Shown here piece by piece: positions 18,352-24,237 of a stretch of 64,000 bases of DNA. The position numbers were made by a program, and so were the translations under genes. The notes under the pieces were generated by a model. The model did not search any database, had not been told where the DNA came from, and was given only the letters and a program-made list of their open reading frames with translations. This DNA is from Antedon mediterranea (lineage: Eukaryota; Animalia; Echinodermata). The DNA is taken from assembly GCF_964355755.1 (NCBI RefSeq), contig NC_092676.1, forward strand, positions 8,967,888 to 9,031,887, read 5' to 3'. Every line of letters begins with the position of its first letter. The first letter of the stretch is position 1.

Positions 18352-18734
18352 ATGGATTCCTTTGAGTTAGCAAAAAAAAGTATCGAGACTAGAGATGACG
18401 AGATGCGCAATAGCATGATAGAGAAGATTTTGCAAGACTTTGATTTTTCGCAGAAAAAAGTTACATAATTAGGAGGAGGTGAAACAAGGCTTGAAAAATC
18501 TATAGCAGAGTTGAAGAAAGCAGTGCAGTATTGCATTGCAAAAGAATTGAACGTTGGACGAATGATTACTAGTTTGACTTTAGCACGCCTCCTATCTGAC
18601 AGGTACAGCGGACACGAAAACGAATTTGCAGCGTTTGTCGCACAATGTTTCGAAGAAAGGTCCGCCCGCTTCGGGTGGCCGGACATGCAGGGTTTGATAA
18701 TCGGAACTTGTGCTATTGCCACCAGGTCGGTAGA
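18352..18734 (+). pseudogene. Bcl-2-like orphan ORF, copy 3 (3'-truncated at a sub-repeat junction)
   Basis: Retains ...EERSARFGWPDMQGLIIGTCAIATRSVE then jumps to the H1-H4 spacer sequence. Confidence 0.55.
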
Positions 18735-19289
18735 ATATTATATATTATCTCTATTATAATAACAATTAAGTTTTTAGAAAATTTTGTACAGATAGTTGTA
18801 TTACCTTTTAATACTTATTTTACCGGTAGTACTGACATTAAAGCGTCGTGTTTCTTTGTCGTGAACGAAACATCACTACTATATCAAAATAATAACTAAT
18901 AATTAAATTGAAATAATGACTCATAACATATTCTTTTTTTTTCCATAATTAACTGTGCTGTTGATTGAATATTTATATATATAAAAGAGTAGTCCTTTTA
19001 TTTAATATTATTTTTTTTTGCAAAGACAAACAACGATGATTTTATTGACCCTTGCACTTACATTCCTCTTTGTTCAGTTTTATTCGTTACGATCATTGTA
19101 TATATAGTTTCGATGGTGGACGACTGACCCAATTTTTCTAGAGATATTTATGTTACTGACGAAATGCAAATTGACATAATTACAGTTGAGCAACGTCCGC
19201 ACAAAGCGTATAACTACTTCGGCATTTCGATTTTCGACAGTTTCCACACATTTCGAATAATTCTGAGTGATTCTTAATATCGATTAAAC

Positions 19290-19601
19290 ATGTCTGGGAG
19301 AGGTAAAGGTGGAAAGTGACTTGGAAAAGGAGGCGCAAAACGTCATCGTAAGGTTTTGCGTGATAACATCTAAGGCATCACAAAACCAGCTATCCATCGT
19401 TTTGCACGTCGTGGTGGTGTCAAGCGTATTTCTGGTCTTATCTACGAAAGAAACCCGTTGTATAATAAAAGTATTCCTCGAGAATGTCATCCGAGATGCT
19501 GTAACATACACTGAGCACGCCAAGAGAAAGACCGTCATCGCCATGGATGTCGTCTACGCCTAAAGAGACAAGGCCGAACACTATACGGATTCGGTGGATA
19601 A
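19290..19601 (+). pseudogene. H4: Histone H4 pseudogene, copy 4
   Basis: Same lesions as copy 3. Confidence 0.96.
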
Positions 19602-19890
19602 ACTCGATGCTTTTTCAAAACACAAGGCTCTTTTCAAAGCCACCAGTTGAACCAAAAAGAGATTTATTTGCTTTTCTTTAATTGTTTAATATGATTCAAT
19701 AATTTCAAATAATCCAGTGATTCTTCAGAAATGTATTGATTATTAAAATTATTTTTATTAAATTTGTTAAGAATTATTTTTTCAGGGGGACAATACATCT
19801 TTAATAAATATAAACAAAGAAGGAGCTTCCTCCATGTCATAAAGCTAAAAATAAGATATGAATTAGGCATGTTTTTGTATTATACCATAT

Positions 19891-20291
19891 TGTCATATTA
19901 TTTATGTTGTGATTCTCTGTGTTTAGAGAAGGATGCTTTAGACCAGGTCCGCCTAATATTATTAGCCAATCAAAATCGTATAATTTTTGGAGGGAAAATG
20001 TTCTCCTCTGAAGCCTAAAATTTGCATGTCCAGTATAAAAGTGGAATGTAATAGATATTAGGGAGAAGAGAGAATAAGATCAAGGTAGATAAAAGGAAAG
20101 ATGATAAAGAAAATATTAAGGCTTGACTGGTAGTGGTAGAAAGATGTATTAATCGAATTACAAGGAATAAAAGTTCTAGTTGAGTTAAATATACTTTTTG
20201 TATGAAATACCATTCAGTGACAGCAGTGTACGTCGCGTGGAAATATATACGCCTGAGAAAGCTCGGAACCAACTAAGATAAATTCACTACA
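19891..20291. mobile_element. Solo LTR, 401 bp
   Basis: TGT...ACA termini and 5-bp TSD CATAT (19886-19890, 20292-20296). Other units show a single CATAT. Confidence 0.88.
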
Positions 20292-20840: not shown

Positions 20841-21223
20841 ATGGATTCCTTTGAGTTTGCGAAAAAAAGTATCGAGACTAGAGATGACGAGATGCGCAAT
20901 AGCATGATAGAGAAGATTTTGCAAGACTTTGATTTTTCGCAGATAGAAGTTACATAATTAGGAGGAGGTGAAACAAGGCTTGAAAAATCTATAGCAGAGT
21001 TGAAGAAAGCAGTGCAGTGTTGCATTGCAAAAGAATTGAACGTTGGACGAATGATTACTAGTTTGACTTTAGCACGCCTCCTATCTGACAGGTACAGCGG
21101 ACACGAAAACGAATTTGCAGCGTTTGTCGCACAATGTTTCGAAGAAAGGTCCGCCCGCTTCGGGTGGCCGGACATGCAGGGTTTGATAATCGGAACTTGT
21201 GCTATTGCCACCAGGTCGGTAGA
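20841..21223 (+). pseudogene. Bcl-2-like orphan ORF, copy 4 (3'-truncated)
   Basis: Same junction as copy 3. Confidence 0.55.
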
Positions 21224-21771
21224 ATATTATATATTATCTCTATTATAATAACAATTAAGTTTTTAGAAAATTTTGTACAGATAGTTGTATTACCTTTTAA
21301 TACTTATTTTACCGGTAGTACTGACATTAAAGCGTCGTGTTTCTTTGTCGTGAACGAAACATCACTACTATATCAAAATAATAACTAATAATTAAATTGA
21401 AATAATGACTCATAACATATTCTTTTTTTTTCCATAATTAACTGTGCTGTTGATTGAATATTTATATATATAAAAGAGTAGTCCTTTTATTTAATAATAT
21501 TTTATTTTGCAAAGACAAACAACGATGATTTTATTGACCCTTGCACTTACATTCCTTTTTGTTCAGTTTTATTCGTTACGATCATTGTATATATAGTTTC
21601 GATGGTGGACGACTGACCCAAATTTTCTAGAGATATTTATGTTACTGACGAAATGCAAATTGACATAATTACAGTTGAGCAACGTCCGCACAAAGCGTAT
21701 AAATACTTCGGCATTTCGACAGTTTCCACATATTTCGAATAATTCTGAGTGATTCTTAATATCGATTAAAC

Positions 21772-22083
21772 ATGTCTGTGAGAGGTAAAGGTGGAAAGTG
21801 ACTTGCAAAAGGAGGCGCAAAACGTCATCGTAAGGTTTTTCGTGATAACATCCAAGGCATCGCAAAACCAGCTATCCATCGTTTTGCACGTCGTGGTGGT
21901 GTCAAGCGTATTTCTGGTCTTATCTACGAAAGAAACCCGTGGTATAATAAAAGTATTCCTCGAGAATATCATCCGAGATGCTGTAACATACACTGAGCAC
22001 GCCAAGAGAAAGACCGTCATCGCCATGGATGTCGTCTACGCCTAAAGAGACAAGGCCGAACTCCATACGGATTCGGTGGATAA
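21772..22083 (+). pseudogene. H4: Histone H4 pseudogene, copy 5 (stem-loop also destroyed)
   Basis: Shared stop and frameshifts; the hairpin reads GGCTCTTTTAGTAGAACC. Confidence 0.95.
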
Positions 22084-22912
22084 ACTCGATGCTTTTTCAA
22101 AACACAAGGCTCTTTTAGTAGAACCAAAAAGAGATTTATTTCCTTTTTTTTAATTGTTTAATATGATTCAATAATTTCAAATAATCCAGTGATTTTTCAG
22201 AAATGTATTGATTATTAAAATAATTTTTCTTAAATTTGTTAAGAATTATTTTTTCAGGGGGACAATACATCTTTAATAAATATAAACAAAGAAGGAGCTT
22301 CCTCCATGTCATAAAGCTAAAAATATAAGATATGAATTAGGCATGTTTTTGTATTATACCATATACTAAGATATACAAATAGTATTAAGTAATACTTAAG
22401 AACCACCAGTTGAACCAAAAGAGATTTATTTGCTTTTCTTTAATTTTTTAATATGATTTAAAAATTTCAAATAATCGATTGATTTTTCAGAAATGTATTG
22501 ATTATTAAAATGTATTATAATAGAAAACCATTTTAGAGATCAATACTCACAAATAACAAACGTATTGTGGTAGCATTTACATTTTATGGTATTTTAACCT
22601 ATATAGGCCTATGTAAAATAAAAGTAGTAACGCGGTAATAATTGATTTAGCACGAATTGGGACGATTCCTCTCGCTTCTAAAAGTTACGTAATGAGTAAC
22701 ATTTTCTATATTTAAACAAATACATACAAAATAGCGCCACATATGCCTTTGTTAACATAAAGAGTCACACGTCGTATAAGGAAAACACGCCTCTTATATA
22801 AATGTTTTGTTTTTTAGAAGTTCTTTTACTATAGCTTTTTTTATCATAATTATGTGTAAAATGCTTCACACAAAAAAAAGGGAATAGAGAATAAGAGAGA
22901 TAATTATACGAA

Positions 22913-24237
22913 ATAGATTCCTTTGAGTTAGCGAAAAAAAGTATCGAGACTAGAGATGACGAGATGTGCAATAGCATGATAGAGAAGATTTTGCAAGACT
23001 TTAATTTTTCGCAGATAGAAGTTACCTTATTAGGAGGAGGTGAAACAAGGCTTGAAAAATCTATAGCAGAGTTGAAGAAAGCAGTGCAAAAGAATTGAAC
23101 GTTGGACGAATGATTACTAGTTTGACTTTAGCACGCCACCTATCTGACAGGTACAGCGGACACGAAAACGAATTTGCAGCGGTTGTCGCACAATGTTTCC
23201 GCCCGCTTCGGGTGGCCGGATGCGATTTTTTTTTTCGTTGTTGGGGACCCCCTCATGAAACATCACAAAATAAACATGAATAATTCATCAGTTAAATTTT
23301 CTTGTTTCGTGTGCACCCAAGCGTATAGCAACAAGAAGTGATTAGGTACACAAGTGCGGTACGATTCTAGGCCTAATCTCCGCTGTGGTTGCCGCGTGGG
23401 ATTTCATAAAAGAATAGCCGCGTTTTGTGTGGATTGTCGAAATAATCAGCCTTTAGTTTATGGTGTTTTTAATATAATTTATTACTAAAGAATTACTTGT
23501 TAAAATTATAGTTTCTATTAATACTATTAGGCCTAATTATTAGTCTCTAAACCCATATTCTAGTAGTAGCTGTGTGGGTGTGTGTGACGTGTGTGTGTTA
23601 GGTATGACACAGTCCGAGTAATAAGTCAGCAAAATTAAACATTAAACATTACACAAAAATACATTTTTTATTCTCGTGGGTCTAATCTTCCCATCTCATG
23701 TGTTCATATACGCGCATTTTTAAAGTTCCTTTGAGTACATGCATATTGTTTGATAATAAAATAGCAGAATTAAAAAATTACAGTACACAAATTATACACA
23801 TTTTTTATTCTTGTGGGTCTAAGCTTTCTTTGGGCTATGTCCAATTACTACTTAGTTTAATGTCTTGCCTAGCTGTCGCGAAGGCAATCACGTGAATTGA
23901 CCTAGAATCCTAGGCCTACTGTAGAAAGAATCGTATCGCAGTTTAGTTGTGCGTGTAATCACTTCTTGTTGCTATACGCTTGGTTGCAGACGGAACAACA
24001 AATTTAACTGATGAATTATTCATGTTTATTTTGTAACGTTTCACGAGGGGTCCCCAACTTGTGTACGAAAAAAAAAATCGCTGGCCGGACATGCAGGGTT
24101 TGATAATCGGAACTTGTGCTATTGCCACCAGGTCGGTAGAAGGAAAACCAATTTTTATGATCGAGGAGGCGCGCAAGATAAAAGCAAGTTTGAACATATA
24201 TACTGGAATGAATATACACGGATCTGACTGCCGCTAG
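22913..24237 (+). pseudogene. Bcl-2-like orphan ORF, copy 5, split by a DNA transposon
   Basis: Start ATA. Lacks both stops seen in copies 1-2 (ACT AGA; ACC TTA TTA) and keeps the full 3' part ...VEGKPIFMIEEARKIKASLNIYTGMNIHGSDCR*. Confidence 0.55.
23222..24081. mobile_element. Non-autonomous MULE/Mutator-like DNA transposon, 860 bp
   Basis: ~145-bp imperfect TIRs (GCGATTTTTTTTTTCGT... / ...ACGAAAAAAAAAATCGC). 9-bp TSD TGGCCGGAT/TGGCCGGAC, with the empty site at ~18675. Confidence 0.85.

What the first reader, a model, noticed from the sequence alone, without database searches (positions are those of the whole stretch)
18352..24237. A ~159-aa Bcl-2-like ORF that is open only in the consensus of five broken copies
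Seen: each copy has different lesions, but merging them gives MDSFELAKKSIETRDDEMCNSMIEKILQDFDFSQIEVTLLGGGETRLEKSIAELKKAVQCCIAKELNVGRMITSLTLARHLSDRYSGHENEFAAFVAQCFEERSARFGWPDMQGLIIGTCAIATRSVEGKPIFMIEEARKIKASLNIYTGMNIHGSDCR. ELNVGRMITSL resembles BH1 (NWGRIV), and FGW about 40 aa later resembles BH2 (GGW). It is intronless and very divergent, more like viral Bcl-2 proteins than cellular ones (inference).
Basis: partly seen in the sequence, partly recalled or inferred. Interest (0 to 1): 0.7.

Follow-up and report, generated by a model that had tools for sequence, protein, structure and literature searches.

The report
Decaying Bcl-2-like gene in histone repeat
Five broken copies of a small intron-free reading frame with no known relative sit beside a likely TIR-domain gene inside the histone gene repeat of what is likely a feather star; the frame is unbroken in three other sequencing runs, so it is likely a real gene being lost, possibly a very divergent Bcl-2-type cell-death regulator, though that fold is not shown.

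Summary
In detail: five broken copies (5625, 12852, 18352, 20841, 22913) together cover a 159-codon frame. But lesions are mostly shared (one stop in four copies), two copies lie outside the stated range, and the frame is not open only in a merge. Single contigs of three other runs (one of organism A, two of organism B) run unshifted for about 138 codons; the last ~20 codons are not shared in frame. The window is likely the feather star Antedon mediterranea (neighbour 100% identical to a RefSeq protein). The ORF and a convergent, spliced, TIR-like gene lie between H4 and an H2B stub in a decayed histone repeat. Bcl-2 kinship is a lead only. For it: the BH1/helix-5 stretch is the best of 1,089 open stretches, and the unbroken versions move closer to the family (P about 0.005). 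Against it: Pfam, a family HMM (-1.2 bits against 41 for a held-out control), HHalign and fold searches of a poor model give nothing, BH2 spacing is 41 against 49-52, and organism B lacks that Trp. No homologue was found, and viral origin is not shown.

The parts
5625..6055 (+). ORF-A copy 1: stops at codons 14 and 39, 23-nt and 26-nt deletions
12852..13282 (+). ORF-A copy 2: same lesions as copy 1
18352..18735 (+). ORF-A copy 3: stop at codon 39, cut after codon 128 into the H1-H4 spacer at a short shared sequence
20841..21224 (+). ORF-A copy 4: stop at codon 39, cut after codon 128; read with X at the stop as P0001 for the searches
22913..24237 (+). ORF-A copy 5: start codon lost, 13- and 11-nt deletions, split by a MITE; only window copy with the undeleted 3' end
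23221..24081 (.). Non-autonomous DNA transposon (MITE): ~150-nt terminal inverted repeats at 84%, 8-9-nt target duplication, summed contig depth up to about 1000 times that of the ORF; Mutator-like by anatomy (inference)
21015..21104 (+). Codons 59-88 of copy 4: BH1/helix-5-like stretch
20722..20729 (+). TATA-like box 119 nt upstream of the ORF-A start (also at 12733, 18233, 22795; split by an LTR remnant in copy 1)
24235..24349 (+). 4.9 copies of a 24-nt repeat starting at the ORF-A stop (also 6053-6167 and 13280-13394); X7/X9 contigs run on into similar sequence
24621..25231 (-). ORF-B: two-exon gene (GT-AG intron about 25157-25038) with CCAAT (25404) and TATA (25348) boxes; exon 2 frame open in all three copies (also 13667-14277, 6441-7051); matches RefSeq XP_071956715.1; TIR-like lead
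25529..25706 (+). CCAAT and octamer boxes and a ~19-codon H2B-like stub (H2B identity recalled, not from a call); no H3 motif found
17553..17905 (+). Broken H4 gene with 3' stem-loop, upstream of ORF-A in every unit
26565..26941 (+). H2A gene downstream of the cassette
27627..28258 (+). H1 gene with histone 3' stem-loop
2923..5506 (+). LTR-retrotransposon-like remnant (two ~1.1-kb direct repeats at 98%) inserted in the TATA box of copy 1

Best explanation
ORF-A is likely a real, lineage-restricted, single-exon gene that lies with a convergent, likely TIR-domain gene between H4 and an H2B stub in a histone repeat unit; its frame is unbroken for about 138 codons in three other runs and broken in all five window copies, which were likely multiplied passively by unequal recombination, and its product is predicted to be a small helical protein that would most likely act as a very divergent Bcl-2-type BH3-binding regulator of cell death. 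Shown: copies, lesions, gene order, unbroken contigs, BH1-like local score. Inferred: expression, order of decay (stop at codon 39 before the spread of copies 1-4; copy 5 broken on its own), fold and function. Odds by part: real present or former gene about 0.8; Bcl-2-type fold about 0.45; viral origin about 0.2.
Against: No whole-domain support: Pfam 0, HMM -1.2 bits against 41.4 for the control, HHalign 0.2-0.3%. Best local score 19.7 is far under the family's leave-one-out minimum 51.4 (members were picked by the NWGRI motif, so that bar is high), and one non-Bcl-2 motif hit scored 20.6. Motif-plus-spacing alone is common: 28 of 30 viral-contig hits were not Bcl-2. BH1 Trp is Val; BH2 spacing 41 against 49-52; Cys at that Trp in organism B. 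No C-terminal membrane segment (hydropathy maximum 0.97 against 2.17 in avipox, though one bat herpesvirus member also has only 1.07). No sign of purifying selection: 2 of 11 listed differences silent, neutral expectation 0.23. For X5 alone the shift towards the family is marginal (P about 0.05-0.06). The motif was first picked by eye, so the shuffle counts for window copies are post hoc.
Confidence: 0.4

Rival explanations
1. ORF-A is a real orphan gene with another helical fold, and the BH1 likeness is chance.
Confidence: 0.3
2. The ORF-A/ORF-B pair is cargo of a virus or mobile element that landed in one histone unit and now drifts neutrally; ORF-A was a viral Bcl-2-type decoy.
For: Intronless, compact, no cellular relative; neutral-like changes; paired with a divergent TIR-only gene. 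In organism B a contig at 13-20 times the depth shares 35 nt just upstream of the ORF and then leaves, as an empty site might. Bcl-2-like motifs are reported in planarian Burro retrotransposons (PMC6431247, passages).
Against: No relative in viral contigs or metagenomes; no viral hallmark among the ORFs scanned; ORF-B has a GT-AG intron and CCAAT/TATA promoter; no second junction found; I recognised no terminal repeats or target duplication around the pair (by eye).
Confidence: 0.2
3. ORF-A is non-coding spacer DNA with a chance open frame.
For: Weak codon-position bias (p=0.09); no homologue; neutral-like changes; the one protein found from this unit is ORF-B, not ORF-A.
Against: 4 of 2000 shuffles reach this length; frame unshifted in two organisms; TATA-like box, GC island and best BH1-like score of the window.
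Confidence: 0.1

Closest known systems
Bcl-2 family (Pfam PF00452), cellular and viral members with BH1 NWGR
   Same: Size about 140-160 aa, predicted all-helical, Asn-x-Gly-Arg followed by a hydrophobic helix; in organism B also the Ala and Phe of the family's helix-5 columns.
   Different: No PF00452 hit; BH1 Trp is Val; BH2 spacing 41 against 49-52; BH2 Trp not conserved; no membrane anchor seen.
Sequence-divergent viral Bcl-2 folds (vaccinia N1L, sheeppox SPPV14, tiger frog virus ORF145R; PMC11209288 passages)
   Same: Small; recognisable, if at all, by BH1 only or by structure only.
   Different: Those lie in virus genomes with solved structures or tests; here the gene is chromosomal, in a histone repeat, with no viral relative and no confident model.
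Sea-urchin-type histone quintet, H2A-H3-H2B-H4-H1 on one strand (PMC13525598 passages)
   Same: H1, H4, H2B stub and H2A follow in that order on one strand, with 3' stem-loops.
   Different: No H3 motif found, H2B cut to a stub, H4 broken, and two non-histone genes lie between H4 and H2B.
TIR-only adaptors (TIRAP/TRAM-like) for neighbour ORF-B
   Same: Atlas feature score 0.87 to TIR_2 clusters; alternating strand-helix model; TIR chains among tied fold hits.
   Different: No Pfam hit; score under the 0.9 bar; flavodoxin-like and receiver folds tie.

Membership tests
Bcl-2 family | Score against the PF00452 profile | tested here: not met
   0 families for copies 3 and 4; three viral controls score 38-84.5 bits
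Bcl-2 family | Whole-domain similarity to a profile of fetched members | tested here: not met
   -1.2 bits, 289 of 1000 shuffles as high, held-out avipox 41.4; HHalign 0.2-0.3%. Tested on window copy 4 only, not on the unbroken versions.
Bcl-2 family | BH1 motif NWGR with hydrophobic helix 5 | tested here: inconclusive
   Asn, Gly and Arg in place, Trp replaced; best stretch of 1,089; 13 of 20,000 shuffles for the organism-B residues, but below family range; motif named in PMC11209288
Bcl-2 family | BH2 with invariant Trp 49-52 residues after the BH1 Trp | tested here: not met
   Spacing 41; Cys codon in X7/X9. Another register (first Trp of BH2) was considered by eye and not tested.
Bcl-2 family | Helical bundle with helix 5 in the core | tested here: inconclusive
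   Single-sequence model pLDDT 50.7, six helices; fold searches uninformative
Bcl-2 family | BH3-peptide binding or control of apoptosis | not testable with these tools
   Needs bench work
Endogenous viral gene | Relative in a virus genome, or viral hallmark genes nearby | tested here: inconclusive
   None in viral contigs, BFVD or metagenomes; none among 9 window ORFs scanned; no whole genome was held
TIR domain (ORF-B) | Flavodoxin-like alpha/beta fold with TIR profile score | tested here: inconclusive

The most novel reading that the evidence does not exclude
A two-gene immune cassette, a Bcl-2-fold decoy facing a TIR-only adaptor, was captured from a virus or mobile element into the histone repeat of feather stars. 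It remains unbroken in two related organisms and is being lost and passively amplified in some lineages: a death/TIR module with no known relative that rides in a histone array.
Probability: 0.15. Interest if true: 0.7.

Novelty: new variant of a known kind. Interest (0 to 1): 0.4.

Why it matters
If the fold is Bcl-2-type, it extends the family beyond what Pfam and profile searches see in an echinoderm, and it pairs a cell-death regulator with a TIR-like gene inside a histone repeat, a setting I found in no paper. It also gives a within-species case of a gene unbroken in one run and dead but five-fold amplified in another. If the fold is something else, it is an orphan gene decaying in a histone array, which is of modest interest.

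Tried and rejected
No whole genome was held, so no genome-wide search for a source copy. Homologue searches with copy 4 found nothing: word index, 0 of 9 candidates, lengths 70-224 only; phmmer on 1.84 billion representatives, 0 at E<=0.001; PDB sequences, best E 0.41; PHROGs and NCBIfam, only E>=0.039; viral contigs 0 of 7 and metagenomes 0 of 165 candidate stretches. Foldseek PDB and BFVD gave no match at E<=0.001, and no Bcl-2 chain is among the 50 VIA rows shown; with a pLDDT-50 model this excludes nothing (canarypox CNP058 appears at rank 44, E 7.1, i.e. noise). No Atlas look-alike result exists for ORF-A. No RNA holder was listed; X5 is only guessed to be RNA, so expression is untested. 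Run X6 (small, depth 2) was not used. The antisense 157-codon frame over copies 3-4 has no Pfam hit and was set aside as a shadow frame. One apparent change near codon 58 was dropped as an alignment artefact beside a deletion (absent). Runs X1 and X3 showed only window-type broken forms among the contigs listed; contigs cannot show absence, and depth was not used as copy number. Earlier scan findings: none in three look-ups. No complex prediction was run.

Full report
Setting. The window is about 33% GC animal DNA. Bases 1-29,000 are a patchwork of 96-99% identical duplications holding H1, H2A and broken H4 genes with histone stem-loops. A neighbouring frame is 100% identical to RefSeq XP_071956715.1, an uncharacterized protein of Antedon mediterranea, so the window is likely from this feather star. 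No whole genome was held.

Observation. Five copies of the frame (ORF-A) start at 5625, 12852, 18352, 20841 and 22913. Their union is 159 codons and none is open. Lesions are nested, not independent. A stop at codon 39 is in copies 1-4. Copies 1-2 add a stop at codon 14 and deletions of 23 and 26 nt. Copies 3-4 are cut after codon 128, where they jump into the H1-H4 spacer. Copy 5 lacks the codon-39 stop but has lost its start, has 13- and 11-nt deletions and carries an 861-nt element with ~150-nt inverted ends and an 8-9-nt target duplication. Summed contig depth of that element is up to about a thousand times the ORF's, so it is a high-copy MITE. Copy 1 has an LTR-like remnant in its TATA box. 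Inference: the gene was already dead before copies 1-4 spread, so the amplification is passive.

Unbroken versions. Nine runs hold the stretch; I laid six of them (X1, X3, X5, X6, X7, X9) in two calls. In X5 (organism A, another study) and X7 (organism B) one contig crosses the MITE site without the MITE. On copy 2, X5, X7 and X9 each have one contig over the frame without the stops at 14 and 39 and without the deletions. For X5 all 14 letter differences are listed and the gap equals the 23-nt deletion; for X7/X9 26 of 28 are listed and X7's gaps equal copy 5's deletion exactly. So the frame is unshifted to about codon 138. A contig at 13-20 times the depth in organism B shares 35 nt upstream of the ORF and then leaves, which may be an empty site; its onward letters are not in the window. 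X1 and X3 showed only broken, window-type forms among listed contigs. An ATG frame this long arises in 4 of 2000 shuffles of the spacer unit. Against a constrained gene: 2 of 11 listed differences in codons 1-104 are silent, as neutral drift predicts (0.23); the number is too small to exclude selection, and break codons and gapped stretches were left out.

Is it Bcl-2? I fetched real members: viral ones by a short recalled motif, 120 listed proteins and 28 metagenome loci (25 distinct segments used). Whole-domain tests on copy 4 are null: Pfam 0, HMM -1.2 bits with 289 of 1000 shuffles as high against 41.4 for held-out avipox, HHalign 0.2-0.3% (the second does align the BH1 register, E 0.33). 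The BH1-to-BH2 Trp spacing is 49-52 in 27 members and 41 here, and organism B has Cys at that Trp. A motif-plus-spacing scan of viral contigs gave 28 non-members in 30 hits, so such motifs alone prove little. For the idea: on a 30-column BH1/helix-5 score from 22 members the five copies are the top five of 1,089 open stretches, narrowly (9.2-14.8 against 9.0 for the next). The unbroken contigs differ from copy 2 at residues 74 and 76 (X5, X7, X9) and 77 (X7, X9), and each change raises the score: 9.2 to 14.2 to 19.7 (307, 61 and 13 of 20,000 shuffles). Three or four random changes do this with P=0.004-0.006; X5's two alone with P about 0.05-0.06. Still, 19.7 is far below members (minimum 51.4, inflated by selection on the motif) and one non-member reached 20.6. 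The AlphaFold model from one sequence is all-helical but poor (pLDDT 50.7), so fold searches decide nothing. Known viral Bcl-2 folds can lack sequence identity (PMC11209288, passages), so the null profile tests lower membership more than they lower 'works like'.

Origin. No relative was found in 1.84 billion protein representatives, viral contigs or metagenomes, and none of nine window ORFs scanned is viral. Being intronless and divergent is the only argument for a virus; the spliced partner argues for a host-type or long-domesticated cassette.

Mechanism, committed. A lineage-restricted small helical protein, likely a Bcl-2-type groove that binds BH3 helices without a membrane anchor, is encoded beside a TIR-like adaptor in one histone unit. 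In the window's lineage it was disabled by stops, deletions and two transposon insertions and was copied along with broken histone genes by unequal recombination. Copies, lesions, order and unbroken contigs are shown; expression, fold and function are inferred. Overall confidence 0.4.

Literature. Passages read: PMC13525598, PMC11209288, PMC6431247; all other papers were seen as search listings only; no supplements were opened, and the species table of PMC13525598 could bear on crinoid histone order. Six searches found no report of this gene or of such a pair in a histone repeat. The H2B, H3 and H4 motifs, the Mutator and Penelope labels and the LTR anatomy are recalled, not from a call.

Verdict. 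Real feature, observation partly corrected, interpretation partly supported. A new variant of a known kind if the fold holds. Interest 0.4.

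Noticed in passing
window 24621-25231 (-), also 13667-14277 and 6441-7051: Spliced gene matching RefSeq XP_071956715.1, open in all three copies, TIR-like by Atlas and fold leads. The RefSeq model starts upstream of the TATA box, so the true start is likely the later Met at about 25231.
   Followed up: partly
window 23221-24081: Very high-copy MITE with ~150-nt inverted ends and 8-9-nt target duplication, present in all four runs laid.
   Followed up: partly
window 2923-5506: LTR-retrotransposon-like remnant: two 1.1-kb repeats, a primer-site-like and a purine-rich stretch, a short gag-like frame (4091-4423, no Pfam hit), inserted in the TATA box of ORF-A copy 1.
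   Followed up: partly
window 8043-8753: Insert with 185-nt inverted repeats and a frame recalling the end of a Penelope GIY-YIG endonuclease (recalled; no Pfam hit).
   Followed up: partly
window 29069-39236 and 42145-52320: 10-kb tandem duplication (98.8%) of part of the purine gene PFAS/purL (PF13507, PF22689); could be real or an assembly haplotype duplicate.
   Followed up: partly
window 39248-40629 (-): LINE-like fragments: endonuclease-like frame (PF14529, E 0.0066, under cutoff) and an esterase-like ORF1 piece (recalled).
   Followed up: partly
window 40797-41273, 52468-54786, 57170-58532: 173-nt satellite arrays, one part inverted, and a 21/86-nt compound array.
   Followed up: no
window 1-29100: All six H4 copies carry an early stop and a frameshift-like break, while H1 and H2A frames stay open but divergent; no H3 motif was found.
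   Followed up: partly
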